DNA of 64,000 nucleotides from Gammaproteobacteria bacterium (GTDB lineage: Bacteria > Pseudomonadota > Gammaproteobacteria > JBCCGL01). A program made the position numbers and the translations under genes. Where the stretch lies: contig OZ255836.1 in NCBI GenBank assembly GCA_965277715.1, positions 3,424,001 to 3,488,000 on the forward strand. Direction: 5' to 3'. Under the pieces are notes generated by a model. The model was not told the DNA's origin. It made no database searches and was given only the letters and a program-made list of their open reading frames with translations. Below, in pieces: positions 930 through 34,887 of the stretch. The first letter of the stretch is position 1; every line of letters starts with the position of its first letter.

Positions 930-3900
930 ATGGCTTACTCCTTTACAGAGAAAAAACGCATTCGCAAGGACTTTGGCAAACGTACATCGATTCTGGATGC
1001 ACCATTTTTGCTGCAAACGCAGCTCGATTCGTACCGCACTTTTTTACAGGCCGATAAAACGGCCGAAGAGCGAGTCGATATCGGTTTACAGGGTGCTTTC
1101 AATTCTGTTTTGCCCATCATTAGTTATTCGGGCAATGTCGAGCTTCAGTATGTGAGCTACAAGCTGGGTAAACCGGCGTTTGAAGAGGTCGAGTGTAAAA
1201 TTCGCAGCCTTACCTACTCGGCACCGCTACGCGTGTTGGTACGCCTGGTGATTTTTGACAAAAACGCCCCGGCCAGCAGTAAAGTCGTCAAAGACATCAA
1301 GGAGCAGGAAGTGTTCATGGGTGAACTGCCGCTGATGACCCAAACCGGCACATTTATTATCAATGGTACCGAGCGTGTTATCGTCTCACAGCTACACCGT
1401 TCTCCGGGCGTATTTTTTGACCACGATAAGGGCAAAACGCACTCCTCTGGAAAACTGCTGTTCTCTGCGCGGGTGATTCCCTATCGCGGTTCCTGGCTGG
1501 ATTTTGAATTCGACCCTAAAGATTGCATTTTTACGCGTATCGACCGCCGTCGAAAACTGCCCGCCACTATATTGCTGCGGGCGCTGGGCTATACCACCCA
1601 GGAAATACTCGATACCTTTTTTGAAACGCACAACCTGACGTTTGGGCAAGACAAGATCGAGCTCGATTTGGTCCCCGAGCGTTTGCGCGGTGACACGGCC
1701 GCATTTGATATTAAGGTCAAAAAGAAAGTCATCGTTGAAGCGGGGCGCCGTATCACCATGAAGCACATCCGCGATCTGACCAAAGCGGGTGTCGAAAAAC
1801 TGGAAGTGACCCAGGAATACCTGATGGGTAAGGTGTTGGCGCACGATATTATCGATGAGTCGACTGGCGAAGTGGTATTCAACGCCAATGATGAAATCAC
1901 GGAAGAAGTGCTGCAAAAGATTATTGATTTGGGCGTGGCAAGCTGCCGGGTGCTGTATACCAATGACCTCGATCGTGGCGCTTATATCTCAAATACATTG
2001 CGCATTGACGCGAGCCGTACCGACATTGAGGCACAGGTTGAAATTTACCGCATGATGCGCCCCGGTGAACCACCGACCAAAGACGCCACCCAGGCACTGT
2101 TTAAAAACCTGTTTTTCTCTGAAGACCGCTACGACCTGTCTGCGGTTGGGCGAATGAAATTTAACCGCCGCTTGGGCCGGGAGGAAATTGTCGGCCCCGG
2201 TGTGCTGGATAAGGAAGACATTCTCGCCGTACTCAGTGAGCTGATTAATATCCGTAACGGCAAGGGCGTGGTCGACGATATCGACCACCTGGGCAATCGC
2301 CGCATTCGCTGTGTGGGCGAAATGGCTGAGAACGTATTTCGCATTGGCCTGGTGCGTGTCGAGCGTGCGGTGCGCGAGCGCCTGAGCATGGTCGAGAGCG
2401 AAGGCCTGATGCCGCAGGACATTATTAATGCCAAGCCGGTTGCCGCTGCGGTACGTGAATTCTTTGGCTCCAGCCAGCTCTCGCAGTTTATGGATCAAAA
2501 TAACCCACTGTCAGAAGTGACACACAAACGGCGTGTTTCGGCGCTTGGCCCCGGCGGTCTAACGCGTGAACGAGCAGGCTTTGAAGTGCGCGATGTCCAT
2601 CCAACGCACTACGGTCGGGTGTGCCCGATTGAAACCCCGGAAGGGCCAAACATCGGCCTTATCAACTCGCTGTCGGTGTATGCACGCACGAACACGTATG
2701 GCTTTCTGGAAACCCCGTACCGCAAAGTGGTCGACGGAAAAGTCACCGAAGAAGTCGAATACCTCTCTGCGATTGAAGAGGGCAACTACATCATCGCCCA
2801 GGCAAACGCCACACTGAATACCAAAGGCAGCCTGACCGATGGGTTGGTGTCCTGTCGCCACATGAATGAATTTTCTATGGCGACCCCGGACAAGGTGCAG
2901 TATATGGATGTTTCGCCCAAGCAGATCGTCTCGGTGGCGGCATCGATGATCCCCTTCCTGGAGCACGATGATGCCAACCGCGCATTGATGGGGTCAAACA
3001 TGCAACGCCAGGCAGTGCCTACACTGCGCGCTGAAAAGCCCCTGGTCGGCACGGGTATGGAGCGTACCGTCGCGGTCGATTCGGGTGCCACCGTTACCGC
3101 CCGCCGTGGTGGTGTGGTCGATTCGGTCGATGCGGCGCGCATCGTTGTGCGCGTTAGCGATGAAGAGGCCGGAGACGACAACGTCGGGGTCGATATTTAC
3201 ACACTGACCAAATACACCCGTTCCAACCAGAACACCTGCATCAACCAAAAGCCACTGGTATCGCCTGGCGATATTATTGCGCGTGGTGATGTGCTCGCCG
3301 ATGGCCCCTCTACCGATATGGGCGAACTGGCGCTGGGGCAAAACATGCTGGTCGCGTTTATGCCGTGGAATGGCTACAACTTTGAAGATTCGATTCTGAT
3401 CTCCGAGCGCGTTGTGCAGGAAGACCGTTTCACCACTATCCACATCGAAGAATTAAGCTGTGTGGCGCGTGATACCAAGCTGGGGCCGGAGGAAATTACA
3501 GCGGATATTCCCAATGTCAATGAAGGCCTGCTGTCAAAGCTGGACGAGTCGGGCATTGTCTATGTGGGCGCAGAGGTTAAGCCGGGCGATATACTGGTCG
3601 GTAAAGTCACTCCTAAAGGTGAAACCCAGCTAACCCCGGAAGAAAAACTGCTGCGCGCCATTTTTGGTGAGAAAGCCTCCGATGTTAAAGACACCTCACA
3701 ACGTGTGCCCTCCGGTATGGACGGTACAGTCATCGATGTGCGCGTATTCACCCGCGATGGTGTCGATAAAGACACGCGTGCGCTGGACATTGAAAAAGAC
3801 GAACTCAAGCAGGTGCGCAAAGACCTCGACGATCAACTGCGCATTATCGAAGATGATATCTTTGCCCGTGTGGAAAAATTAATTGTCGGCGGTATTGTCG

Positions 3901-5012
3901 CCAAAGCGCCGGGTGGTTTGGGCAAGGGTGACACCGTTAATAAAGCCTACCTCGACGAGTTGGAGCGCGAGCAGTGGTTTGATATCGGCATGAAAGACGA
4001 AGAGGTCAATCTGCAACTGGAAAAATCGCTGGTGCAGATCAAAGATCAGCGCGAACTGTTTGACCGGAAATTCCTTGAACAGAAAGAAAAAATCACCTCG
4101 GGTGATGATCTGGCGCCCGGCGTGTTGAAGATGGTCAAGGTGTATCTGGCGGTAAAACGCCGCCTGCAACCCGGTGATAAAATGGCGGGTCGTCACGGTA
4201 ACAAAGGAGTTATCTCGATGATCGTGCCGCGTGAAGATATGCCGTATATGGCAGACGGCACGTCGGTCGATGTGGCGCTCAACCCGCTGGGTGTTCCCTC
4301 GCGTATGAACGTTGGCCAGGTGCTGGAAACACACCTGGGCTGGGCGGCCAAAGGGCTGGGTAAAAAGATTGGCCAGCTACTCGATGCGCAAAAGAAAGTC
4401 AACGAAGTGCGCTCGTTCCTCGACAAAATATACAACCACAAACAATCGGTTAACAAGGTCGACCTGAAAAGCCTGAGTGACGTGGAAATTATGACGATGG
4501 CGCGCAACCTACGGGCAGGTGTGCCGATGGCAACCCCGGTATTTGACGGCGCCAGCGAGGCGGAAATCCACGAAATGCTGGCGCTGGCCGGTTTGCCTGA
4601 AAGTGGTCAGGCCGAGCTGATCGACGGGCGCACGGGCGATGGGTTTGGTCGGCCAGTAACGGTTGGCTACATGCATATGCTCAAGCTCAACCACCTGGTC
4701 GATGACAAAATGCACGCCCGTTCAACCGGGCCGTACAGCCTGGTTACCCAGCAGCCCCTGGGCGGTAAAGCGCAGTTTGGTGGCCAGCGTTTTGGGGAAA
4801 TGGAGGTATGGGCGCTGGAAGCGTATGGCGCTGCATACACCCTCCAGGAAATGCTTACTGTGAAGTCTGATGATGTCAATGGCCGTAACAAGATGTACAA
4901 AAACATCGTCGATGGCGACCACCGGATGGAAGCGGGTATGCCGGAATCCTTCAATGTACTGTTGAAAGAAATCCGCTCGCTGGGCATCAATATTGAGCTC
5001 GACCAAGATTAA
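930..5012 (+). CDS. rpoB: RNA polymerase beta subunit
   Basis: 1360 aa; [48 protein letters not shown]. Confidence 0.99.
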
Positions 5013-5088
5013 GTCCAGCGCCGTCAGCCAATAGGCAGATGACCGCTACATACAGAATACGCTGATACATTTAGCGACCGGAGATACC

Positions 5089-8000
5089 ATGAAAGATTTA
5101 CTTAATCTCTACAAAGTACAGGGACAAGTAGAAGACTTTGATTCAATTCGAATCGGTCTCGCCTCGCCCGATATGATCCGTTCCTGGTCATACGGTGAAG
5201 TGCGCAAGCCGGAAACCATCAACTACCGCACCTTTAAGCCGGAGCGCGATGGGCTGTTCTGCGCCAAGATCTTTGGCCCGGTAAAAGACTATGAGTGCCT
5301 GTGTGGTAAATACAAACGCCTCAAACACCGGGGAGTTGTCTGCGAAAAATGCGGGGTTGAAGTCACCCAAATCAAAGTGCGCCGCGAACGCATGGGGCAT
5401 ATCGACCTCGCCAGCCCCTGCGCGCACATCTGGTTTTTGAAATCGCTGCCCTCGCGCATTGGCCTGCTATTGGATATGACGCTGCGTGAAATCGAACGCA
5501 TTTTGTACTTTGAAGCCTACGTAGTGATCGACCCGGGCCTGACGACACTGGAAAAAGGCCAGTTGCTCTCTGATGAACAATACCTGGAGGCGATAGAGGA
5601 ACACGGCGATGAGTTCGACGCCCGCATGGGTGCTGAAGCCGTGCGCGATCTGCTCAAAGTCGTCGACCTGGAAAGAGAAGACCGCCGCCTGCGTGAGGAA
5701 ATGAGCGAAACCAAATCGGAAACCAAAATCAAACGCTACTCCAAGCGGTTGAAACTGATCGAATCGTTTGTCGACTCTGGTAACAAGCCGGAGTGGATGG
5801 TAATGACCGTACTGCCGGTATTGCCACCGGATCTGCGCCCGCTGGTGCCACTGGATGGTGGGCGATTCGCCACCTCCGATTTGAACGATTTATACCGCCG
5901 TGTGATCAACCGCAACAACCGCCTGCGCCGCCTGCTGGAACTGAATGCACCGGACATTATCGTGCGCAACGAAAAGCGCATGTTGCAGGAATCGGTCGAT
6001 GCACTGCTGGATAATGGCCGCCGTGGCCGTGCGATCACAGGCAGCAACAAACGCCCGCTAAAATCACTGGCAGATATGATTAAAGGTAAGCAGGGGCGTT
6101 TCCGCCAAAACCTGCTGGGCAAACGCGTCGACTACTCGGGGCGCTCCGTTATCGTGGTTGGCCCTACCCTAAAGCTCCACCAGTGCGGTCTGCCAAAAAA
6201 GATGGCGCTGGAACTGTTTAAGCCCTTTATCTTCAGCAAACTGCACTTGCGCGGCCAGGCCACCACCATCAAGGCGGCAAAGAAAATGGTCGAGCGCGAA
6301 GGTGGAGAGGTCTGGGATATTCTCGAAGAAGTGATTCGCGAACACCCGGTCATGCTGAACCGGGCGCCCACCTTGCACCGGCTGGGCATCCAGGCATTTG
6401 AGCCGGTGTTGGTTGAAGGTAAAGCCATCCAGCTACACCCATTGGTGTGCGCCGCGTTTAACGCCGACTTTGACGGCGACCAAATGGCCGTGCACGTACC
6501 GCTGGGCATTGAGGCACAACTGGAAGCGCGTGCACTAATGATGTCCAGCAATAACGTGCTCTCTCCTGCCAACGGTGAGCCGATTATTGTTCCCTCGCAG
6601 GACATCGTACTGGGTCTGTACTATATGACCCGCGAAAAAATCAACGCCAAAGGTGAGGGCATGGTATTTGCCGATATCATCGAATGCCGACGGGCGTTTG
6701 ACCTCGGTTTAGTCGATTTACAGGCAATTGTTCAAGTCCGTGTTAAAGATCTACTGGAAAATCAGGACGGTGACAGCACGATGGGCATTCGCCGTGCAAA
6801 AACCACCGTGGGCCGGGCCATCGTATCTGAATTGTTGCCCGATGGCCTGCCGTTTAAACTGGTCGATCGCGACTTGTCGAAAAAGGCCATCTCCAACTTG
6901 ATCAATGTGTGTTACCGCCAGATTGGTTTAAAAGAGACCGTCGTTTTCGCCGATCAACTGATGTACACCGGCTTTAGATACGCCACCTTCTCCGGCGTGT
7001 CGATTGGTGTGGAAGACATGGTTATCCCCCAGGAGAAATACGACATCATCGATGGGGCTGAGAGCGAAGTAAAAGAAATCGAAAACCAGTACTCATCCGG
7101 CCTGGTTACCTTTGGTGAGCGCTACAACAAAGTAGTCGATATCTGGTCACACGCCAACGAACAAGTGGCCACCGCTATGATGGGCAAGCTGGGCACCGAA
7201 CAGGTTGAAAATGCGGCGGGCGAAACCGTCGAGCAGAAATCATTCAACTCTATTTACATGATGGCCGACTCGGGTGCGCGTGGTTCTGCGGCGCAAATCA
7301 GGCAACTGGCCGGGATGCGCGGCCTGATGGCCAAGCCGGATGGGTCGATTATTGAAACGCCCATCACCGCCAACTTCCGCGAGGGCTTGAACGTACTGCA
7401 ATACTTTATCTCCACACACGGTGCGCGCAAGGGCCTGGCTGATACCGCCTTGAAAACGGCGAACTCCGGTTACCTGACCCGCCGCCTGGTTGACGTTGGC
7501 CAGGACATGGTCGTCACCGAAGTCGACTGCGGTGTTGAAGAAGGCTTGACAATGACGCCAGTGATTGAGGGGGGGGATGTTGTCGAGCCTTTGAGCGAGC
7601 GCGTCCTGGGGCGTGTTGTCGTGCATGACATCTGCCGTCCGGGCACCGATGAAGTCATTATCGAAAAAGGTACATTAATCGATGAAGCCTGTGTCGATAT
7701 CTTTGAAGCGGCGAGTGTCGACCAGATTATCGTGCGCACATCGATTAGCTGTAAGGCTAAATTTGGTGTGTGTGCCAAATGCTACGGTCGCGATCTGGCG
7801 CGTGGCAACCTAATCGACCAGGGCGAAGCGGTGGGCGTTATGGCGGCACAATCCATCGGTGAGCCGGGCACCCAGTTGACCATGCGCACCTTCCACATCG
7901 GCGGCGCGGCCAGTCGTTCTGCCGCAGCCAACAACGTAGAAATAAAATACGGTGGCAGCGTCCGTTTCCACAACCTCAAACACGTCAGCAACAAAAACGA

Positions 8001-9330
8001 CAACGTCGTCGCGGTTTCGCGCTCGGGCGAATTGGGTGTTGTCGATGAAAATGGCCGTGAGCGCGAACGCTACAAAATCCCTTATGGTGCCGTTATCACA
8101 GTGGCCGACAAGGGTGCCGTTGAGGCGGGGCAGGTCGTGGCTACCTGGGACCCGCACACCCACCCAATCATCACCGAAGTGGCCGGTGTGTTGCAGTTTA
8201 GCGACTTCCTTGAAGGCGCCAGCGTTAACACCGAGACAGATGAAATCACCGGCTTGTCATCGAGTGTGGTCATCGACCCGAAACAGCGCCGCAGCAGTGG
8301 TAAAGACCTGCGCCCAATGATCAAACTGGTCGACGCTGAAGGCAATGACCTGTGTTACATCAGTACAGATATCCCCGCGCATTACTTCCTGCCCACCGGA
8401 GCCATCGTCAACCTTGAAGACGGTGCCCACGTGGAAGTGGGTGACGTGGTTGCCCGTATCCCACAAGAGTCTTCAAAAACCCGCGACATTACCGGTGGCC
8501 TGCCGCGTGTGGCCGACTTGTTTGAAGCGCGCAAACCGAAAGAGCCTGCGATCCTGGCTGAAATTACCGGCACCATCAGCTTTGGTAAAGAGACCAAAGG
8601 TAAGCAGCGCCTGGTTATCACCGGCGACCACGACGAGCGCTACGAAGAGCTGATTCCAAAATGGCGTCACGTCAATGTGTTTGAAGGTGAGCGCGTCGAG
8701 CGCGGTGAAATGATCGCCGATGGCGAACCTAACCCGCAGGACATCCTGCGCCTGCTGGGCGTTGCCGAGCTGGCTGCCTACCTGGTCAAGGAAATTCAGG
8801 ATGTTTACCGCCTGCAAGGCGTGAAAATCAACGACAAACACATCGAAGTGATCGTCCGGCAGATGTTGCGCAAAGCTGAGATCCTGGAATCGGGTGACTC
8901 AACCTACCTGCGCAGTGAACAGGCAGACTATGCCCGCGTAAAAGAAGCCAACGAACAGCTCGTTGCCGAGGGCAAAGAACCGGCCAAATTTGAGCGTATT
9001 TTATTGGGTATCACCAAGGCATCACTGGTTACCGATTCGTTTATTTCGGCGGCCTCTTTCCAGGAAACCACGCGGGTACTCACCGAAGCCGCCGTGCGCG
9101 GTGCCAAAGACGAACTGCGCGGCCTGAAAGAAAACGTCATTGTGGGTCGACTGATCCCGGCGGGCACAGGCCTGGCGTTCCACGAAGAGCGGCGTCAACG
9201 CCGTGAATCGTTATCATTTGAGGCGTTTGCAGCGTCTGATATGGCCACGGGCGGAGAGACCAGTGTCGTAGAAGGCGTCGAAGCCGCTGGTGATGTTGTT
9301 GCAGAGGAAACGCAGGAAACAAACATTTGA
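5089..9330 (+). CDS. rpoC: RNA polymerase beta' subunit
   Basis: 1413 aa; catalytic NADFDGD, N-terminal Zn-finger cysteines. Confidence 0.99.
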
Positions 9331-25582: not shown

Positions 25583-26185
25583 TTACTGGCCAGACGAAAG
25601 AGTGGATGGTGCGAGTGGCACAATCGGTATTACCGGAATAGTGCCGATTGCGCCCGTGCCTGGCCTCGGCACTTTCCAGTTTTCCAGCGTGGTTTTCACC
25701 GGCAGCATATCAATGCAATCCACCGGGCACGGCTCGACGCACAACACACAGCCGGTACACTCCGATTCAATCACCGTGTGCATATGCTTGGCGGCGCCGA
25801 GAATGGCATCCACTGGGCAGGCCTGGATGCACAGTGTGCAGCCGATGCAAATATCTTCACGAATTACCGCCACCGATTTGGGCTTCTCTATCCCGTTTTC
25901 GGCATTCAGCGGTATCACCTCGCGATCCAGCAAGGTCGCCAACGCCTGAATCCCGGCCTCACCTCCAGGTGGGCACTGGTTGATGGGGGCATCGCCTGCG
26001 GCAATCGCCTCGGCATAGGGACGGCAGCCGGGGTAATTGCATTGACCACACTGGGTTTGCGGTAGCACGGCGTCAATCTGATCGACCAGCGGATCCCCTT
26101 CGACTTTGAATTTTATCGCCGCGAAGCCAAGCAGCAGGCCAAACCCTATGGATAGACCGGTAATCACGGCAATGGCGGCGATCAT
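25583..26185 (-). CDS. rnfB: Rnf subunit B
   Basis: [33 protein letters not shown]. Confidence 0.95.
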
Positions 26186-26763
26186 GCGGGCACCAGCCCG
26201 GAAAAACCCATAAATGCCAGCGACATCAACCCGGCAGTAATCAACGCGACTGCGTTACCTTTTAGTGGCGCGGGCACATCGGCGACATCGATACGCTCGC
26301 GCATCGCGGCGAACAACACCAGTACCAGCGTAAACCCAATCGCCGCCCCAAAGCCGTACAGGGCTGAATCGATAAAATGGTGGGTCTGCTGCACATTGAG
26401 CAGCGCGACCCCAAGCACCGCACAGTTGGTGGTAATCAACGGCAGGAAAATGCCCAGCACGTTGTACAGCAGGGGGCTGCTTTTATGCACCACCATCTCG
26501 GTGAACTGCACCACGGCGGCGATAATCAGAATAAACGCAATCGTGCGCAGGTATTCGATATCGAAAGGCGCCAGCAGAAATGTATTTGCCAGGTAGCTGC
26601 ACACCGAGGCCAGTGTGAGCACAAACGTCGTCGCCAAACCCATGCCGATGGCCGTTTCCAGCTTGCGTGATACCCCCATAAACGGGCACAGGCCGAGAAA
26701 CTTCACCAGCACAAAGTTGTTCACCAAAATGGTGCCAACCAGGATAAGCGCGTAATCAGACAC
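26182..26763 (-). CDS. rnfA: Rnf subunit A
   Basis: [31 protein letters not shown]. Confidence 0.95.
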
Positions 26764-26935
26764 GAATAACTCAGTAATTTAGTCAGGTATAGCCAAATGG
26801 GCGCGAATTCTAACAATTCATTACCTGTTGTGACAGGTCGAATGTGTTATATGTATATTCGCGACTAAACAGCCCTTCCCAGCTAACGGCCTATTCAGTG
26901 CAGGCGGTTGAGCAGTTGGATATTACCGAGGTGTT

Positions 26936-27118
26936 TTACCTTTTCATAAGGTCGACGGTCAGCGGTAATAAACAACGCGTTGCCAACCATGCGATCAATT
27001 GCCCATGCCCTGCTTGAGTGTTGCCAATCACTTTGGTTTTGGCTTTCTCAACGCCAATATCGCGTAGCCACAACACATCAAGTTTTGCTTTGCTTACATC
27101 GATACCAATGATGTTCAT
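26936..27118 (-). pseudogene. IS110-family recombinase, N-terminal fragment
   Basis: MNIIGIDVSKAKLDV..NTQAG..LIAWL (start of DEDD RuvC-like domain); only 60 aa. Confidence 0.85.
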
Positions 27119-27119
27119 A

Positions 27120-27299
27120 ATTCTCTTACCCCACCTTGTTTATGCAGTCTCAAAGGACTCGGATACCATTCAGATTGTTGAGAAATTTGACGTGTGAGAC
27201 CTTATCTACTTAACAGACTCAATAGTCTAAGGATACAGTCAGGTTCTTCACACGCCCTGATGCAATATCAGCTAAACATTACATCGAGAGAGATACAAG
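27120..27299 (-). ncRNA. IS110 left-end bridge RNA (IS621-like)
   Basis: element end CTTGTAT; target loop CTGTATCCT-AGACT/AGTCT hairpin-AGTAGAT inside a CGTGTGA/TCACACG stem; donor loop ATGGTATC-AGTC/GACT hairpin-ACAAGG; directly upstream of the recombinase ATG. Confidence 0.75.
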
Positions 27300-27384
27300 G
27301 GATACAGGAGCTAGAGCAACGCAGGAGTAGTTGCCGACGACTGTATGGATACAGGAGCTAGAGCAACGCAGGAGTAGTTGCCGA
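27300..27384. repeat. tandem REP-like repeat (2 x 38 bp, period 47)
   Basis: GGATACAGGAGCTAGAGCAACGCAGGAGTAGTTGCCGA at 27300-27337 and 27347-27384. Confidence 0.85.
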
Positions 27385-27404
27385 GGAGCGGTAGCTTCGC
27401 ACTG

Positions 27405-27454
27405 TATACAGTGGAGAAAGACACTTACGTCTCGCGAACGAAAACCCTATAGCA
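27405..27454. repeat. dispersed 50-bp repeat, copy 1
   Basis: 45/50 identical to 40613-40662. Confidence 0.85.
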
Positions 27455-27560
27455 GCACAGACAACTCAGCTATAAGGCGAATCGGTGCATTGACGAATCC
27501 CGGAATTTATTTCATGCACGTTCCTAACAGGTCAAACCACCCATGGGTATCTACCCCGGT

Positions 27561-27979
27561 CTATTCGGTAATCCCGGCAATAGACTCAGCGAGTTTCTTA
27601 GTGATAAAACGCAGCTTTCCAATCGACATTTTTTTTGTGGTCGACATAATAAGAACGGATTGCTGCAACAAAAAACGCGTTTTTAAAAAAAGAATATTGC
27701 CCGCATCGGTTTCAATGATGCCAAGCTGCAATGCACCACCGGTCATTGCCCGGGCTGAAGCACCACCTAATGAGTAAAGTGTGCTCGATATAGCGGAAAT
27801 TTTTTCCTCTTCAGCCCGTTCAGGTGTGCGGGCCAACGAATGAAGAGTGAAACCATCTACCGACGACAGGCTAATAAGCTGTATTTCTATATTATTGGCA
27901 AAAAAAAACCGACGAGCTTTGCCAGCTTTTTTTGTGCATTGGTGGGTTGGTTATTATCAGGGGGGTTTTTCTGGTTCAT
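27561..27979 (-). pseudogene. Roadblock/LC7 (MglB-like) protein split by a -1 frameshift
   Basis: ATG 27979 overlaps the GTPase stop and that frame ends after 30 codons; the -1 frame reads IQLISLSSVDGF..EKISAISSTLYSLG..IIETDAGNI. Confidence 0.75.
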
Positions 27980-28509
27980 AAATGTTTATTCATTGCGTTG
28001 AGCGTGTAGAGCAACGTGACGGATGAATGCTTTTCTCTACCGTCAATTTTTAAAATAGGCGCGTTTATACCCTGCTGTTCGAAAATGCAATGAACCTCCA
28101 GTTTAAGCGTCTCAAGGATATCCTGCGATGCATTCTCAGCGTGAGTGATAACTGCAACGCACGGTGTGTTGTTACGTTTTGGATCAAAGAACTTTAGCAG
28201 CCCAGCGATCTCTTCATAGTCGTTTTTCTCCTGGTACTTGATCATGACAACCAGACCCCATAACGAGGTGTTAACAATCTCCCACAAAAAGGAGTACCGG
28301 CTTTGTCCCGGTACACCGTATAGGCCCAGCACGGTATCGTCCGCCAGTGTGATCCGGCCATAATCGATACCGACGGTAGTGTGCGATTTGCCGATGTCGA
28401 TTGTCGACTCCACGTCAGTTTTAACCGTATCGATTTCGCTTAAAGTGCGGATGATACAGGTTTTGCCTGTACCGACCCCACCTATAAAAGCCAGCTTCCT
28501 ATACTCCAT
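27976..28509 (-). CDS. MglA/CvnD-type small P-loop GTPase
   Basis: G1 [25 protein letters not shown]4-like THAE. Confidence 0.9.
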
Positions 28510-30203: not shown

Positions 30204-30929
30204 ATGGCCCGCCTTCCCCGCTTTGTTATTCCCGGTCACCCGCAGCACGTTATTATTCGTGGCAATAACCGGCAGTCGATTTTTTATTCAGACGACGACT
30301 ATCGATTTTATCTGGCGAAGTTGAAAGCAGCCTGCGACAAACACCATTGTGATCTGCACGCTTATGTTTTGATGACGAATCATGTGCATTTATTGATTAC
30401 GCCTTATGCAACGGACGGTATCGGTAAGGCCGTGCAGATGCTGGGGCGTTACTATGTCCGGTATTTTAATGACACCCATCAGCGCAGTGGCACGCTCTGG
30501 GAAGGGCGCTATAAAGCGACGCTGATTGATTCAGAGCGTTATCTGTTGACGTGTTACCGCTACATAGAATTGAACCCGGTGCGGGCGCAGTTTATGGTGG
30601 ATCACCCGGCGGACTATCCCTGGTCGAGTTACCGCTATAACGCACAGGGGCAGGCAGATGAAAACATTGTCCCCCACGCTGAATACCAACGGCTTGGCCG
30701 TGATCCACAAGCGAGGCAGGTGGCGTATCGCGCGTTGTTTAAAGCGCATATTTCGGAAAAAGTACAGGCGTCAATTCGCGAGTCGACGAATAAAGCCTGG
30801 GTGCTGGGTGGCAGTGATTTCAAAGCGCGCATTGAAAAGCAAGTAAACCGCCGGGTGTCACCACAAGCGAGAGGTGGTGATCGAAAATCTGCTGGGTATC
30901 TGTCTCAATCAACGATCAATCGAGTCTGA
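30204..30929 (+). mobile_element. REP-associated tyrosine transposase (RAYT, HUH Y1)
   Basis: HVIIRGNNRQ, YVLMTNHVHLL (HUH), LWEGRY, YIELNPVRA, YPWSSY. Confidence 0.92.
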
Positions 30930-30972
30930 CCCCATTGATTTTGATCAATCGAGTCTGACCCCATTGATTTTG
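30915..30972. repeat. RAYT-flanking REP, right, 2 x 29 bp tandem
   Basis: ATCAATCGAGTCTGACCCCATTGATTTTG x2, perfect. Confidence 0.9.
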
Positions 30973-33900
30973 CGGAGGAGGATTAGCCAGTGCTTTGGGC
31001 CTGACCGGGGGGGCTTGCACCGTGCGCTGGGTAAACTGTGGAAGGGTAACGGGCAGCCGGAGCCTGCCCGTTTGTCTGCGTTTCAGGCGTTGCTCGATGC
31101 CTCTGTTGCGCGGGTGGAACAGCGGCGTCTGTCTCTTCCCAAGCCGCTTTATCCCGCTGAATTGCCGGTTGTTGAAGCCCGCTCAGAAATTCTCTCGACG
31201 ATTAAAAATCATCAGGTCACGGTTATCTGTGGTGAAACCGGCTCGGGTAAAACTACGCAGTTACCCAAGATGTGTATGGAGTTGGGGCGTGGTGTCCACG
31301 GTTTTATTGGCCATACACAACCCCGCCGTATCGCGGCGCGCAGTGTCGCCGCAAGAATCGCCGGCGAGCTGGGGTCGACGGTGGGGGGCGCGGTCGGTTT
31401 TAAAGTGCGCTTTTCTGATCAGGTGAGCACTGACAGTTACCTGAAATTGATGACCGATGGCATTCTGCTCAGTGAGATTCAGCATGATCGTTGGCTGAAT
31501 CAATACGATACGTTGATTATTGATGAGGCACATGAACGCAGTTTAAATATTGATTTTCTCCTCGGTGTTTTAAAACAGTTACTGGTTAAACGGCCTGATC
31601 TGAAGTTGATTATTACCTCGGCCACTATCGACCCGGAACGCTTTTCGACACACTTTGATAACGCCCCGATTATCCGTGTCGAGGGGCGTACCTGGCCGGT
31701 GGAAACCCGTTATCAGCCCTTGCTGAGTAGCCTGGAGGGCAGCGGTGAAGAACCGGATCTGGTCGATGCGCTGGTAACAGGCTGTGAGATCCTGATTGCC
31801 GAATGCCGGGGGCAGCGTGGCGATGTATTGGTGTTTTTGCCTGGCGAGCGGCATATCCGCGAGTGCAGTGAAGCCCTGCAGAAACATCAGGCACACAGTA
31901 AGCATTTGGCCGGTGTTGAGGTGTTGCCACTGTTTGCCCGCCTGACTCCGGCAGAGCAGGGGCGTATCTTTGCTCAACACAGTAAGCGCCGTATTGTGCT
32001 GGCGACGAATGTGGCGGAGACCTCGCTGACTGTGCCGGGGATTCGCTATGTAATCGATACCGGTCTGGCGCGCCTGTCCCGCTATAGTCTGCGCAGCAAG
32101 GTGCAGCGCCTGCCGATAGAGAAAATATCCCGCGCCTCGGCCAATCAACGCAAGGGTCGCTGTGGCCGGGAAGCCCCAGGCATTTGTATCCGCTTGTACA
32201 GTGAGGAGGATTTTAACGCCCGCCCCGAATTCACCGAGCCGGAAATTGTGCGGACTAATCTGGCCTCAGTGATTTTGCAGATGGCCGCTTTGCGGCTCGG
32301 CGAGGTTGAGCGCTTTCCCTTTGTCGAGGCACCCGATGGCCGTTTGATCCGCGACGGCTATCAGTTGTTGTTTGAGCTGGGGGCCGTCAATAAACAACAG
32401 GCGCTCACCCCACTTGGCCGACAGCTAGCCAAGTTGCCGCTGGAGCCGCGTTTTGCCCGTATGTTGTTTGCGGCGGGTGAGGAGGGGTGTGTGAGTGAGG
32501 TGCTGACCATTGTCAGTGCCCTGTCGGTACTCGATCCACGCGACCGGCCACAGGATAAACAACAGGCTGCCGATCAATTGCATGCCGAGTTCAATCAGCA
32601 GGCGGCGGGGAGTGTCAACAGTGATTTCGACGCCTGGCTAAACCTGTGGGCCTTTATCGATGTGCAGTGGCAGGCGCTGTCTCGCAGTAAATTCCGCAAG
32701 ATGTGCCAGTCGCGGTTTCTCTCTTATTTACGGGTGCGCGAGTGGCAGGATGTGCGCAGGCAGTTACAGCGCCAGGTCGGTGCGCTCGGTCTGCGTGAAA
32801 ACAGCGAGCCCGCCCACTATGCCGCTATCCACCGCTCCCTGCTGGGCGGCCTGCTGTCGAATGTGTGCATGAAAGATGAAAAACGCCAGTACCTGGGCAG
32901 TCGCAACCGCAGGTTAAAGATATTCCCTGGGTCGGCACTGCGCAATAAAACACCGCAGTGGCTGGTGGCAGCCGATATCAGCGAAACCTCACAGTTGTTT
33001 GCACGCACGGTGGCGAAAGTCGAGGTTGAGTGGGTCGAGCGTTTGGCCGGGCATTTGTTGAAATACAGCTATTCGCAGCCACGTTGGGAAAAAAGGCGTG
33101 GGCAGGTGGGGGCGAAGCAAAAATCCACGCTGTACGGCCTGGTAATCAATCCAGGCAAGTGGATCAACTACGGGCCGGTTAATGCCGCTGAATCCCGTGA
33201 GATTTTTATCCGCGATGGCCTGGTGGCAGGCCAGTTGTCCAGCAATGCCGGTTTTTACCGGCACAACCTGGCACTGATCGATGAAGTGTTGCAGCTTGAA
33301 CACAAGTCCCGCCGCCGGGATATTCTGGTCAGCCCAGAGGAGTTGGTGCGTTTTTACGCGGGCCTGATTCCCGATGATGTGTATTCAATGCCCACCTTTG
33401 AGCGCTGGCGCAAGGCGTTTGAGGTCGAGTACCCCAGAGGTCTGTATTTTGAAAAAGCGTCGCTGATGCACACCGACGATAATGTGATCAGTGACACCGA
33501 TTTTCCCAATCACCTGGAGATTGGTAGCGCGGTGTTTCCGCTGAGCTATGCCTTTTCGCCCGGCAGCGGCAATGATGGGGTAACCATGACCATTCCAGTG
33601 GCCGTATTAAACCGGGTGGATGCGGCGGTGTGCGAATGGCTAGTACCGGGCCTGCTACTGGAGAAAGTGACCGCTTTAATCAAATCACTGGCAAAGCCCC
33701 TGCGGCGCAATTTTGTCCCCGCGCCGGATTTTGCCCGGCAGTGTATCGCCATGTGGGATGTTGCCGTGCCGCCAACCATCGGTTTGTATAGCGCCCTGGC
33801 CAGGGCGCTCTCCAGCACTGGCCGCTGCAAAATCAGCCCGCACGATTTTGAAATCCCCTTATTGGCAACGCATCTGTCAATGCGCTTTGAGATTATCGAT

Positions 33901-34887
33901 GCGCACGGCAAGCTACTCGCCAGTGGCCGTGACCTGGATGCATTGAGCCGACAATTTGCTACACAAACCGCCTCCAGCTTATCGAAAATTGTCGCGCCAA
34001 CGCTGGAGCGCGAAGCGATAAACGACTGGAATTTTGGCGATTTGCCCACCTCGGTGGAAGTACAGGAAGGCAGCGGGAAAAGTGCCGTAAAATTGCTTGC
34101 CTATCCCGCCTTGTGTGAGCAGGGTGAGGACATCAGCCTGCGCGTATTTCCCACCCAGGCCGCTGCCGCTGGGTCGATGCACAATGGTTTGCGCGCACTG
34201 TATCAGCGGGTGCTGAAAAATGAGCACCGCTATATTCTCAATCGACTGCCGGGTATGGATGCGCTGAGCCTGATCTACGCACCGTTTGGCAGCGGTGAAG
34301 CCCTGCGCCAGGATTTATCCCACGCCGCGTTTGTGGGTGCTTTAATGCAGGGGAAAAGCGTGCCGCGTCGGCGTGACGACTTTTACCAGGTTATCGCGCA
34401 ACATCAAAAAGACCTGTTGCCACTGGCCAATACTTTGCTGGAATTACTCGACACCAGCCTGCGCGCCTACCGACAATTGGCCAGGCGCATCGGCCAATCG
34501 AACCGCCTGAGTTGGGTGGAACCACTGGAGGACATTCACGGGCAACTGGCGCTATTGTTTGCCCCCGGGTTTATTGGCAAAGCCGGTGCCACCTGGCTAA
34601 AGCGCTATCCGGTCTACCTGAAAGCGATTGAGCGCCGACTGGACGCGATCGATAAATCACCCGAGCAAGACAGGCTTAAACGCGCCGGGTTTTTACCGCT
34701 GTGGCAACAGTTCAGGCAGCGGCTGCCAGTGTGTGGCAGCGATGCCGGGTGTGATGAGCGCCATATGCACTACCGCTGGCGGATGGAAGAGCTGCGTATA
34801 TCGTTGTTTGCACAGAGCCTGGGAACCTGTGAAAAGGTCTCATTGCAACGATTAGAGCGCGACCTGGAAGGGTTTGCTGACGTATAG
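30970..34887 (+). CDS. hrpA: ATP-dependent RNA helicase HrpA
   Basis: GETGSGKTTQ, DEAH, SAT, QRKGRCGR, C-terminal EELRISLFAQ; start uncertain (TTG 30970 lies inside the REP). Confidence 0.95.
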   Translation: MRRRISQCFGPDRGGLHRALGKLWKGNGQPEPARLSAFQALLDASVARVEQRRLSLPKPLYPAELPVVEARSEILSTIKNHQVTVICGETGSGKTTQLPKMCMELGRGVHGFIGHTQPRRIAARSVAARIAGELGSTVGGAVGFKVRFSDQVSTDSYLKLMTDGILLSEIQHDRWLNQYDTLIIDEAHERSLNIDFLLGVLKQLLVKRPDLKLIITSATIDPERFSTHFDNAPIIRVEGRTWPVETRYQPLLSSLEGSGEEPDLVDALVTGCEILIAECRGQRGDVLVFLPGERHIRECSEALQKHQAHSKHLAGVEVLPLFARLTPAEQGRIFAQHSKRRIVLATNVAETSLTVPGIRYVIDTGLARLSRYSLRSKVQRLPIEKISRASANQRKGRCGREAPGICIRLYSEEDFNARPEFTEPEIVRTNLASVILQMAALRLGEVERFPFVEAPDGRLIRDGYQLLFELGAVNKQQALTPLGRQLAKLPLEPRFARMLFAAGEEGCVSEVLTIVSALSVLDPRDRPQDKQQAADQLHAEFNQQAAGSVNSDFDAWLNLWAFIDVQWQALSRSKFRKMCQSRFLSYLRVREWQDVRRQLQRQVGALGLRENSEPAHYAAIHRSLLGGLLSNVCMKDEKRQYLGSRNRRLKIFPGSALRNKTPQWLVAADISETSQLFARTVAKVEVEWVERLAGHLLKYSYSQPRWEKRRGQVGAKQKSTLYGLVINPGKWINYGPVNAAESREIFIRDGLVAGQLSSNAGFYRHNLALIDEVLQLEHKSRRRDILVSPEELVRFYAGLIPDDVYSMPTFERWRKAFEVEYPRGLYFEKASLMHTDDNVISDTDFPNHLEIGSAVFPLSYAFSPGSGNDGVTMTIPVAVLNRVDAAVCEWLVPGLLLEKVTALIKSLAKPLRRNFVPAPDFARQCIAMWDVAVPPTIGLYSALARALSSTGRCKISPHDFEIPLLATHLSMRFEIIDAHGKLLASGRDLDALSRQFATQTASSLSKIVAPTLEREAINDWNFGDLPTSVEVQEGSGKSAVKLLAYPALCEQGEDISLRVFPTQAAAAGSMHNGLRALYQRVLKNEHRYILNRLPGMDALSLIYAPFGSGEALRQDLSHAAFVGALMQGKSVPRRRDDFYQVIAQHQKDLLPLANTLLELLDTSLRAYRQLARRIGQSNRLSWVEPLEDIHGQLALLFAPGFIGKAGATWLKRYPVYLKAIERRLDAIDKSPEQDRLKRAGFLPLWQQFRQRLPVCGSDAGCDERHMHYRWRMEELRISLFAQSLGTCEKVSLQRLERDLEGFADV

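What the first reader, a model, noticed from the sequence alone, without database searches (positions are those of the whole stretch)
26936..27337. Orphan IS110 bridge RNA whose target guide matches the REP it sits in
Seen on the minus strand: REP ...CTCCTGTATCC | CTTGTAT (element end; CT core), about 180 nt non-coding, then a 60-aa recombinase stub. The non-coding part has IS621 bridge-RNA layout. Target loop: left guide CTGTATCCT (27238-27230), AGACT/AGTCT hairpin, right guide (T)AAGTAG. Donor loop: left guide ATGGTATC (27169-27162), hairpin, right guide ACAAG (27139-27135) complementary to the element's own CTTGT end. The left target guide matches the adjacent flank 8/8 (CTGTATCC), with one extra C at the junction. 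Predicted donor is ATGGTAT-CT-TGTAT. The predicted right target (CTACTT) fits the REP (CATACAG) poorly, so this may be an off-target insertion. The recombinase and right end are lost, but the RNA looks intact and could serve a trans recombinase.
Basis: partly seen in the sequence, partly recalled or inferred. Interest (0 to 1): 0.7.

Follow-up and report, generated by a model that had tools for sequence, protein, structure and literature searches.

The report
Truncated IS110 element keeping its bridge RNA
This is the left end of a broken IS621-like insertion sequence: its guide ("bridge") RNA gene looks intact, the recombinase gene is cut off after 47 codons, and it sits in a high-copy repeat upstream of the rnf operon, which makes it an ordinary decay product.

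Summary
On the minus strand, 27299-27119 is the left end (LE) of an IS110-family element, starting with the CT core and TGTATCTCTC.

- **Bridge RNA:** a covariance model built only from 59 relatives' LEs matches 27299-27130 end to end (142.2 bits, E 2e-35). It is the only hit in the window.
- **Recombinase:** the 60-aa ORF is IS-derived for 47 codons (45/47 identical to P0001, a 332-aa IS110 transposase), then breaks at 26978/26977.
- **Extra base:** the left target guide matches the flank 7/7 only with one extra C before the core. One relative, L030, shows the same one-base offset.
- **Repeat:** the 47-nt unit is not repeated elsewhere in the window. Contigs of four public runs pile up on it at about 47-152x the flanking depth, so a REP-like repeat is supported.
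- **Full copies:** two of those runs also hold a higher-depth full-length IS (about 3% different, same four guides) beside the remnant locus.

Expression is untested, and the junction promoter of relatives cannot form here. Verdict: a new member of a known kind, most likely an inert relic. Low to moderate interest.

The parts
27341..27387 (-). Complete 47-nt repeat unit (copy 1), ending in the palindrome CTGTATCCATACAG (27354-27341).
   Evidence: family D1, 98% identity, spacing 47. Searches find no further copy in the window. In one search the summed contig depth over 27260-27427 is about 47-152x that of the flanking bins in four runs.
27300..27340 (-). Repeat unit copy 2, cut by the IS after ...CTGTATCC. 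It is the left flank of the element. The last C (27300) is the extra base relative to the guide.
27298..27299 (-). CT core dinucleotide at the left junction.
   Evidence: CT-TGT(A/G)TCT begins the LE in the relatives.
27119..27299 (-). Left end (LE) of the IS, 181 nt, non-coding. It holds the bridge-RNA gene and the ribosome-binding region.
   Evidence: covariance-model match 27130-27299, 142.2 bits.
27257..27288 (-). 5' stem-loop of the bridge RNA.
   Evidence: fold of the window sequence alone. helix 1: 7 of 7 pairs have changes on both sides in relatives.
27189..27256 (-). Target-binding loop: outer stem, LTG CTGTATC-CT (27238-27230), inner hairpin (27228-27215), and RTG TTAAGTAG (27213-27206).
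   Evidence: (helices 2-5).
27135..27169 (-). Donor-binding loop core: LDG ATGGTATC (27169-27162), a short hairpin AGTC/GACT (27159-27146), and RDG ACAAG (27139-27135).
   Evidence: RDG-RD pairs, L038 compensatory; helix 6. The short hairpin also occurs in L041, L054, L055 and others.
26978..27118 (-). First 47 codons of the IS110 recombinase (start of the DEDD domain).
   Evidence: 45/47 identical to P0001; differences at 27042 and 27025 in the higher-depth contig give P0001's V26 and S32.
26936..26977 (-). Non-IS tail of the 60-aa ORF, running to its stop. The breakpoint is at 26978/26977.
   Evidence: the loose end before 26978 in X5 and X6 encodes STGEPVTQCH, which equals P0001 residues 48-57.
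26807..26836 (-). Promoter-like site with a TG-extended -10, between the remnant and rnfA. This is context, not part of the IS.
   Evidence: a consensus match only.
26182..26763 (-). rnfA-like gene, first gene downstream (context).
   Evidence: PF02508, E 3e-62.

Best explanation
This is a 3'-truncated copy of an IS621-like IS110-family insertion sequence in a bacterium found in sponge metagenomes.

**Shown.** The element inserted, bridge-RNA end first, at the palindromic end of a high-copy 47-nt repeat upstream of rnfABC. A later deletion removed everything beyond codon 47, so the catalytic part of the recombinase and the right end are gone. What remains is the complete left end. It would encode a roughly 170-nt bridge RNA with a 5' stem-loop, a target-binding loop and a donor-binding loop. 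The target-binding loop carries LTG CUGUAUC-CU and an RTG whose last four bases, GUAG, read CT-AC in the target, with UUAA before them. The donor-binding loop carries LDG AUGGUAUC and RDG ACAAG.

**Inferred.**
- The site was the guide's target with one extra base between the left arm and the core (CTGTATC-C-[A/C]T-AC). That makes it a near-cognate or off-target site.
- The remnant is most likely an inert relic. The promoter that a circular RE-LE junction would form cannot form here, so any RNA would come from read-through.
- Where full-length copies coexist, the remnant's RNA would duplicate theirs, because the guides are identical.
For: - **Covariance model:** 142.2 bits, full length, the only hit in the window.
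- **Family structure:** in 59 relatives, 85.9% of cells are paired against 62.2% in shuffles and 37-46% when partners are slid. 32 of 34 pairs show changes on both sides.
- **Fold of the window RNA alone:** it shows the 5' stem-loop and the target loop, z = -2.18.
- **Stub:** 45/47 identical to P0001. P0001 carries PF01548 and PF02371. It matches the IS621 transposase 8wt6 at E 2e-55 and ISCro4 9t56 at E 7.5e-55.
- **Guide rules in relatives:** left flank against LTG is 7/7 in 25, 6/7 in 21, 5/7 in 11, 4/7 in 3 and 2/7 in 2 of 62. Right end against LDG is 7/7 in 45 and 6/7 in 10 of 55. All 55 RTGs read CT at the core.
- **Real junction:** contigs of four runs from four studies cross 26978 without a break. 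In X5 and X6 a second 1016-nt contig at about 13x and 8x the depth of the single-locus contig leaves the window exactly at 26978 and continues as P0001 does. Over 27130-27279 the higher-depth contigs differ from the window only at 27131 and 27224, neither in a guide.
- **Repeat:** depth is about 47-152x that of the flanking bins.
- **One-base offset:** L030 reads ACGGCACC-A|CT, 7/7 at +1. Durrant et al. (section 9) report IS621 off-targets that tolerate insertions in the target.
- **Promoter:** in relatives with the same left-end start as the window, such as L001, L013 and L029, I read by eye a -35-like TTGNNN in the right end, 17 nt before TATCTT across the core. The window has TCCCTT there. 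Durrant et al. place the -35 box of the junction promoter in the right end.
Against: - No right end or full copy of this exact IS could be read, so ATGGTAT-CT as its right end is inferred from relatives only.
- One contig in X5 carries the left-end tip with a different flank (...GCTGCTATACA-C|CT). That flank fits the LTG poorly in either register: 1/7 in register and 4/7 at +1, both counted by eye. The guide-flank match is therefore not shown for the active copies. Contig paths through repeats can be chimeric.
- The depth sums may include other organisms.
- The remnant has the same breakpoint in four runs from four studies. This fits old shared ancestry but also fits retention by selection.
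- IS621 bridge RNA is made at low level from integrated copies by read-through, enough for excision (PMC13626964 section 5). Loss of the junction promoter therefore does not prove silence.
- No terminator-like site was found between the upstream same-strand genes and the remnant.
Confidence: 0.8

Rival explanations
1. The remnant is a working orphan. Its bridge RNA is transcribed by read-through from the upstream same-strand genes, loads the recombinase made by full-length copies, and contributes to their transposition or to rearrangements. Alternatively its flank-core-left-end junction serves as a recombination half-site.
For: - The RNA gene differs from the higher-depth copies at only 2 positions over 27130-27279, none in a guide.
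- Full copies coexist with the locus in 2 of 4 runs.
- Bridge RNA works in trans for IS621 (Durrant et al.).
- Read-through expression suffices for IS621 excision.
- No terminator-like site lies upstream.
- The same remnant is present in four runs from four studies.
Against: - With identical guides it adds no new specificity and only a small extra dose beside the full copies, whose contig lies about 8-13x deeper.
- No full copy was seen in X1 or X4, although contigs show presence, not absence.
- The scan found no promoter-like site on the minus strand at or just upstream of the left end. Its only minus-strand sites lie downstream of the remnant, at 26836-26807.
- The junction -10 is destroyed.
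Confidence: 0.12
2. The extra C is a later slip. The element inserted in register at CTGTATC-CT (or CTGTATC-CA), and a C was added afterwards in the CC run.
For: - The remnant is old: about 3% diverged from the higher-depth copies and truncated.
- In-register matching is the rule, with 5-7 of 7 in 57 of 62 relatives.
- A run of C is prone to slippage (general knowledge).
Against: - The intact neighbouring repeat copy already has the eighth base (CTGTATCC-AT-AC). The observed junction therefore equals that flank plus the donor core, with no mutation needed.
- L030, a copy whose left end is identical to those of L031 and L035, shows the same +1 pattern at an unrelated site.
- An indel at exactly the junction base is a priori rare.
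Confidence: 0.25
3. The left guide is read one base later in the loop (UGUAUCC-UU). The flank TGTATCC-CT is then in register, with a G-U wobble at the first core position.
For: - The letters allow it: 7/7 plus U-G and U-A.
- In L074 the guide's own CT lies one base nearer the hairpin in a loop of the same length. With that CT its flank fits 6/7, by my reading of the strings printed.
Against: - 60 of 62 relatives fit the standard register at 4/7 or better.
- IS621 strongly prefers matched pairing to both core strands (Durrant et al.).
- This reading does not explain L030: the same shift there gives 6/7 plus a G-A mismatch, by my reading.
Confidence: 0.1
4. Assembly artefact: the junction at 26978 or at 27300 is a chimeric join of an IS copy and unrelated DNA.
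For: Repeats and IS copies commonly break or misjoin metagenome assemblies. Logan contigs do end near 27276-27301.
Against: Single contigs at the depth of the flanking region run from 26000 across 26978 to 27186-27301 in all four runs laid, which come from four studies (table 8).
Confidence: 0.02

Closest known systems
IS621 of Escherichia coli (IS110 family) and its bridge RNA (Durrant et al. 2024, PMC11208160; structures 8wt6-8wt9)
   Same: - The bridge RNA is encoded in the left end, upstream of the recombinase.
[quoted passage not shown] - There is a CT core.
- The insertion site is a repetitive palindromic element.
- The right target reach is short (CT-AC).
- P0001, the full-length counterpart, aligns end to end with the IS621 transposase (E 2e-55).
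   Different: - Different guides: the predicted target is CTGTATC-CT-AC(TTAAC), against ATCAGGCCTAC for IS621.
- Here only the left end and 47 codons survive.
- No activity, RNA or right end was observed.
Relatives fetched here (L001-L125), for example L082, L084, L085 and L086 (60-64% protein identity)
   Same: - Same left-end start, CT-TGTATCTCTC.
- Same loop layout.
- The same conserved pieces TTAGCT, GTAGAT, (A/G)A(T/C)GGTATCC and ACAAGG.
- The left ends of these four score 165.7-169.7 bits with model R1, against 142.2 for the window.
   Different: They are full-length, with their own target guides, and their flanks are in register. The window copy is truncated and its flank is offset by one base.
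Left end plus stub remnants in other records (L122 and L119)
   Same: A full-length left end by model R1 (120.9 and 123.6 bits). The recombinase gene is matched only to residue 88 (L122) or to residue 155 with a frame change (L119).
   Different: These are different IS lineages and hosts, and their flanks were not analysed. They show that such remnants occur elsewhere (2 of 44 metagenome loci).
IS621 off-target and half-match insertions (Durrant 2024 section 9; Xie et al. bioRxiv 10.64898/2026.08.31.748434, section 8)
   Same: Insertion at sites that fit the guide imperfectly. The first paper reports tolerance of an inserted base in the target. The preprint reports that a match to the core and one arm can suffice.
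   Different: Those are laboratory events with IS621. Here the event is inferred from one old natural junction and one parallel, L030.
Orphan ssr9 modules of ISPpu9 in Pseudomonas putida (PMC12288879; passages found by term search)
   Same: Parts of an IS110-family element carrying a small RNA gene occur apart from the transposase gene, at REP sites.
   Different: Ssr9 lies downstream of the transposase gene, is not required for transposition, and is flanked by both end-like boxes (MITE-like). The window remnant has one end only and carries the bridge RNA proper.

Membership tests
IS110 family, IS110 subgroup (IS621-like) insertion sequence | N-terminal DEDD (RuvC-like) recombinase domain | tested here: inconclusive
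   Only the first 47 residues are present. Pfam PF01548 scores 17.1 bits, below its cut-off of 29. The 47 residues are 45/47 identical to P0001, which passes PF01548 (81.7 bits) and PF02371 (77.5 bits).
IS110 family, IS110 subgroup (IS621-like) insertion sequence | C-terminal Tnp domain (Transposase_20), which in IS621 holds the catalytic serine (the serine's place is recalled, not from a call) | tested here: not met
   Absent from the window. tblastn with P0001 finds only residues 1-54 at 27118-26957, and all other hits have E > 2. The locus is therefore a fragment, not an intact member.
IS110 family, IS110 subgroup (IS621-like) insertion sequence | Long non-coding left end upstream of the recombinase that encodes a structured RNA: a 5' stem-loop and two stem-loops with internal loops | tested here: met
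   Model R1 scores 142.2 bits over positions 1-180 of 180. Covariation in 59 relatives. Fold of the window sequence alone.
IS110 family, IS110 subgroup (IS621-like) insertion sequence | CT core at both junctions | tested here: inconclusive
   CT is present at the left junction, 27299-27298. The right junction is lost. No right-end motif was found in the window beyond chance.
Bridge RNA (as defined for IS621) | The left target guide has the sequence of the left flank plus the core | tested here: inconclusive
   1/7 in register and 7/7 with the flank shifted by one base. Relatives score 5-7 of 7 in register in 57 of 62.
Bridge RNA (as defined for IS621) | The right target guide is complementary to the core plus the right flank | not testable with these tools
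   The right flank is lost. The neighbouring repeat copy reads AT-AC against the predicted CT-AC. In relatives all 55 RTGs read CT, and AC or more matches in 51 of 55.
Bridge RNA (as defined for IS621) | The right donor guide is complementary to the start of the left end | tested here: met
   ACAAG (27139-27135) against CTTGT (27299-27295). These pairs are invariant in 59 relatives, with one compensatory change in L038.
Bridge RNA (as defined for IS621) | The left donor guide has the sequence of the right end plus the core | not testable with these tools
   The right end is absent. In relatives the LDG against the last 7 nt of the right end is 7/7 in 45 and 6/7 in 10 of 55. The predicted right end is therefore ...ATGGTAT-CT.
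Bridge RNA (as defined for IS621) | The RNA is made and binds its recombinase | not tested
   No RNA run was listed among the holders.
REP-like repeat as target | A short palindromic intergenic unit present in many copies in the genome | tested here: inconclusive
   Only two tandem copies in the window. Summed contig depth is about 47-152x that of the flanking bins over 27260-27427 in four runs, but those sums can include other organisms. No genome is held.

The most novel reading that the evidence does not exclude
The left-end remnant is kept because it is used. It would be transcribed by read-through from the upstream genes. Its intact bridge RNA would load the recombinase of the full-length copies, and its flank-core-left-end junction would act as a fixed recombination half-site at the repeat upstream of rnf. 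The organism would then carry a stand-alone guide RNA locus of an IS110 system. A related, smaller claim is that this lineage naturally accepts left target arms displaced by one base from the core, as seen here and in L030.
Probability: 0.1. Interest if true: 0.55.

Novelty: new member of a known kind. Interest (0 to 1): 0.27.

Why it matters
As it stands this is an annotation result. It is a well-preserved bridge-RNA gene of an uncharacterised IS621-like lineage in a sponge-associated bacterium, with readable guide sequences and a predicted 11-nt target, left behind by a deletion.

Two things give it modest value:
- Together with L030 it is a natural example of insertion at a site with one extra base between the left arm and the core. 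That bears on predicting off-targets of bridge recombinases. Durrant et al. mention such tolerance only in passing.
- It shows that an intact guide RNA gene can outlive its recombinase and coexist with active copies. That is the situation in which trans use could be tested.

Neither point changes what is known about how IS110 elements work.

Tried and rejected
**Searches that gave nothing or could not run**
- Own-genome search: no genome is held for the window.
- Rfam 15 over 26000-28500 at E <= 10: only a chance-level sucA-II match, and no bridge-RNA family matched.
- blastn of 26900-27400 against plasmids: no match.

**Looking for relatives of the host**
- RpoB is 70-72% identical to five genomes that carry related IS copies.
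- At best it is 82% and 81% identical among 400 genomes sampled from the same class.
- The orders of the two best genomes hold 3 genomes each, and none matched the remnant or the repeat.
- No close relative, empty site or repeat census was obtained.

**Looking for a near-identical full copy**
- Genome contigs gave 79 loci at 44-62% identity.
- Metagenome contigs gave 44 loci, the best at 64%.
- The right end of this exact IS therefore remains unseen.

**Other checks**
- Sequencing runs: no RNA holder was listed, so nothing can be said on expression.
- No full-length copy appeared in the contigs of X1 and X4. Contigs show presence, not absence.
- Similarity between the DNA after the breakpoint and the DNA upstream of the repeats (families D2 and D5) is weak. 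The best local alignment is 27/36 and non-collinear, so I rejected a duplication.
- The breakpoint has no CT core, so I rejected a recombinase-made deletion (reading).
- Pattern CGGCACC(N0-1)CTAC in the genome of L030 gave 2 hits against 16 and 10 for the reversed control. It says nothing about repeat variants there.
- Right-end motif in the window: one 2-mismatch hit inside the large ORF at 930-5012, at chance level.
- Predicted 11-nt target with up to 1 mismatch in the window: none.

**Literature**
- Searches for 'bridge RNA' + bulge + IS621 + off-target and for IS110 + bRNA + bulge found 0 papers.
- The search for 'bridge RNA' + orphan + IS110 found 7 papers, of which 6 were listed. None of those I opened describes a left-end-only bridge-RNA remnant.
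- I do not claim that such remnants are unpublished.
- Supplementary files were not consulted. Those of Durrant et al. (insertion-site tables) may already list one-base-insertion off-targets.

**Rows left out of counts**
- Alignment A2 and model R1 use 59 of 62 distinct left ends. L067 was mis-trimmed by my script. L043 and L045 have a long hairpin insertion.
- drops 5 loci with fewer than 10 nt of flank (L009, L017, L018, L036, L051) and L069, whose guide was misaligned.
- drops 5 loci with no right end found, and a further 9 that were duplicates or had too little right flank.

**Unpublished genomes**
The genomes flagged as unpublished (G300, G044, G312, G145) only appear in that RpoB listing.
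Full report
**What is in the sequence**

Read on the minus strand, the region shows the following, in order.
- A 47-nt unit occurs twice in tandem (27387-27341 and 27340-27300, 98% identity, spacing 47).
- The first copy ends in the palindrome CTGTATCCATACAG. The second is cut after CTGTATCC.
- Then come CT (27299-27298), TGTATCTCTC, and 181 nt in all without a reading frame.
- An ATG follows at 27118, opening a 60-aa ORF (26936-27118).
- The next gene downstream on the same strand is rnfA (26182-26763), followed by rnfB- and rnfC-like genes.
- Upstream on the same strand lie a small GTPase-like gene and a BLUF-domain gene.

**The ORF is a recombinase stub**

- Pfam alone gives only a sub-threshold DEDD_Tnp_IS110 match (17.1 bits, cut-off 29).
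- A search among longer proteins found 14 proteins at E <= 0.001 among 23 candidates. The best is P0001 (332 aa).
- The stub is 45/47 identical to P0001 over residues 1-47 and unrelated after that.
- P0001 carries both IS110 domains. It aligns end to end with the solved IS621 transposase (8wt6, E 2e-55) and ISCro4 transposase (9t56, E 7.5e-55).
- tblastn with P0001 finds nothing else in the window. A right-end motif is not present beyond chance.

**The non-coding part is a bridge-RNA gene**

- I fetched 79 loci that encode relatives of P0001 (44-62% identity) and aligned the DNA upstream of each gene with the window. The window aligns along its whole length.
- From 59 of the 62 distinct left ends, without the window, I made alignment A2. 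Three were left out; see Tried and rejected.
- I took a consensus structure from RNAalifold, with the element tip and the right donor guide barred from pairing.
- Its 34 pairs are 85.9% paired across the relatives, against 62.2% in column shuffles and 37-46% when partners are slid. 32 pairs show changes on both sides.
- The helices are a 5' stem-loop, an outer stem and inner hairpin around a first internal loop, and a hairpin of a second loop. This is the layout Durrant et al. describe for IS621 (PMC11208160, sections 6 and 7 read).
- The covariance model R1 built from A2 hits the window once, at 27130-27299(-): 142.2 bits, E 2.2e-35, all 180 positions.
- Left ends that were not in the model and are matched over its whole length score 79.3-169.7 bits.
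- The window's donor-loop hairpin is short, but so are those of L041, L054, L055 and others.
- Rfam has no matching family.

**The guide assignments follow rules that hold in the relatives**

- *Left target guide.* The 7 nt before the core in the left flank equal the 7 nt before CT in the guide at 7/7 in 25, 6/7 in 21, 5/7 in 11, 4/7 in 3 and 2/7 in 2 of 62 distinct pairs.
- *Left donor guide.* The last 7 nt of the right end equal the guide 7/7 in 45 and 6/7 in 10 of 55.
- *Right target guide.* All 55 read CT at the core. The right flank then matches for 2 bases in 23, 3 in 11, 4 in 4, 5 in 11, 6 in 2, and 0-1 in 4.
- *Right donor guide.* ACAAG pairs with the element's own CTTGT. L038 has CTTAT with ATAAG, a compensatory change.
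The right end itself is not available for this IS.

**The extra C**

- In register the window's flank fits its guide 1/7. With one extra base next to the core it fits 7/7.
- The intact neighbouring repeat copy reads CTGTATC-C-AT-AC. That is the predicted 11-nt target with one added base and A for C at the first core position.
- The observed junction, CTGTATC-C-CT-TGTATC, is what that flank joined to the donor's core would give. No later mutation is needed.
- In that register the right target AC matches, which is the commonest case in relatives.
- L030, a chromosomal copy whose left end is identical to those of L031 and L035, has the flank ACGGCACC-A|CT. It is 2/7 in register and 7/7 at +1, at a site unlike its sisters' flanks.
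[quoted passage not shown] A preprint reports that a match to the core and one arm can suffice (10.64898/2026.08.31.748434, section 8).
- I therefore favour insertion at a near-cognate site with one extra base. A later C slip and a one-base-later reading of the guide (UGUAUCC-UU with a G-U wobble) remain open.
- The apparent offset of L074 comes from its own CT lying one base later in the loop (my reading).

**Evidence from public runs**

Ten runs hold part of 26000-28500. Seven hold at least half of the sampled words, and the ten come from five studies. They are labelled sponge metagenome or a coded organism. I laid the contigs of four runs from four studies.
1. In all four, one contig at the depth of the flanking region runs from 26000 across 26978 to 27186-27301. 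The breakpoint is real and shared.
2. In X5 and X6 a second contig of 1016 nt covers 26978-27186 with 7 differences, at about 13x and 8x the depth of the single-locus contig. It leaves the window exactly at 26978.
   - Its loose end, reverse-complemented, reads STGEPVTQCH, which is P0001 residues 48-57.
   - Its differences at 27042 and 27025 give P0001's V26 and S32.
   - Full-length copies of this IS therefore exist, in several copies, beside the remnant locus.
   - Over 27130-27279 the higher-depth contigs differ from the window only at 27131 and 27224, so all four guides are the same.
3. No such contig appeared in X1 or X4. This does not show absence.
4. Summed depth over 27260-27427 is about 47-152x that of the flanking bins, about 3-11x over 27428-27511 and about 2-4x over 27512-27595. 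The repeat thus belongs to a high-copy family, with the caveat that the sums may include other organisms.
5. One X5 contig joins the left-end tip to a different flank (...GCTGCTATACA-C|CT) that fits the guide poorly. I leave this unexplained.

**Expression**

- In relatives with the same left-end start as the window, such as L001, L013 and L029, the right end carries a -35-like TTGNNN 17 nt before TATCTT. That hexamer is made of the right end's last TAT, the core and the first T of the left end (my reading).
- This agrees with the junction promoter described for IS621, whose -35 box lies in the right end.
- At the window's chromosomal junction that hexamer reads TCCCTT. The scan found no promoter-like site on the minus strand at or just upstream of the left end.
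- It also found no terminator-like site between the upstream genes and the remnant. It found a promoter-like site with a TG-extended -10 between the remnant and rnfA (26836-26807).
- IS621 bridge RNA is made at low level by read-through from integrated copies (PMC13626964, section 5). Read-through here is possible but untested, and no RNA run was listed.

**Conclusion**

- The locus is a truncated IS621-like element whose bridge-RNA gene is intact.
- The deletion endpoint has no CT core, so the recombinase itself is unlikely to have made it (inference).
- Similar left-end-plus-stub remnants occur in other records (L122, L119).
- The remnant is most likely inert. Where full copies coexist, its RNA would be redundant with theirs.
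- It is a new member of a known kind. The one-base offset, shared with L030, is the only feature of wider interest.

Noticed in passing
L030:2817-2994 and its left flank: A chromosomal copy in Pokkaliibacter plantistimulans whose left end is identical to those of L031 and L035. Its left flank reads ACGGCACC-A|CT: 2/7 in register with the guide and 7/7 shifted by one base. This is the same one-extra-base pattern as the window. A pattern search of that genome for intact sites was uninformative (2 hits against 16 and 10 in the control).
   Followed up: partly
L122:2807-3264 and L119:2811-3458: Two metagenome loci keep a full-length left end by model R1 (120.9 and 123.6 bits). The recombinase is matched only to residue 88 (L122) or to residue 155 with a frame change (L119), although the loci run on about 3 kb beyond the match. 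They are further left-end-plus-stub remnants.
   Followed up: partly
window 27176-27320: In X1 and X4 the summed depth over 27176-27259 is about 2.3-2.4x that of the flanking bins. A 67-nt contig (27254-27320, the left-end tip plus 21 nt of flank) lies at 2.4x in X1, while 26924-27175 stays at the flanking depth. A second locus sharing the repeat flank and the first part of the left end may exist.
   Followed up: no
window 27282 and 27300 (loose ends in X5): One contig shares the repeat plus the first 18 nt of the left end and then diverges. Another joins the left-end tip to a different flank (...GCTGCTATACA-C|CT) that resembles 27445-27459 of the window. The repeat region seems to be modular and to carry several IS-end fragments.
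   Followed up: no
window 27428-27595: Depth falls stepwise away from the 47-nt unit: about 3-11x the flanking bins over 27428-27511 and about 2-4x over 27512-27595. The repeat family therefore seems to have longer, rarer modules upstream of the 47-nt unit. A joint '27398 back to 27321' in X1 and X4 points to other arrangements of the units.
   Followed up: no
window 27316-27334 and 27363-27381: Each repeat unit holds a small hairpin (GCAAC...GTTGC) just 5' of the left target arm. A preprint on ISPpu10 (10.64898/2026.03.19.712850, abstract only) reports that a stem-loop 5' of the target adds specificity. Whether that applies here is unknown.
   Followed up: no
window 30914-30972: A perfect tandem duplication of a 29-nt unit (2.0 copies, 100% identical), straddling the end of one ORF (30204-30929) and the start of a large ORF (30874-34887).
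   Followed up: no
window 930-9330 and runs X1-X10: The two large ORFs (1360 and 1413 aa) look like rpoB and rpoC. The first is at best 82% identical to any of 400 sampled genomes of the same class, and the two best genomes belong to orders with only 3 genomes held. Most runs that hold the window are labelled sponge metagenome. The host appears to be a poorly sampled sponge-associated gammaproteobacterium.
   Followed up: partly
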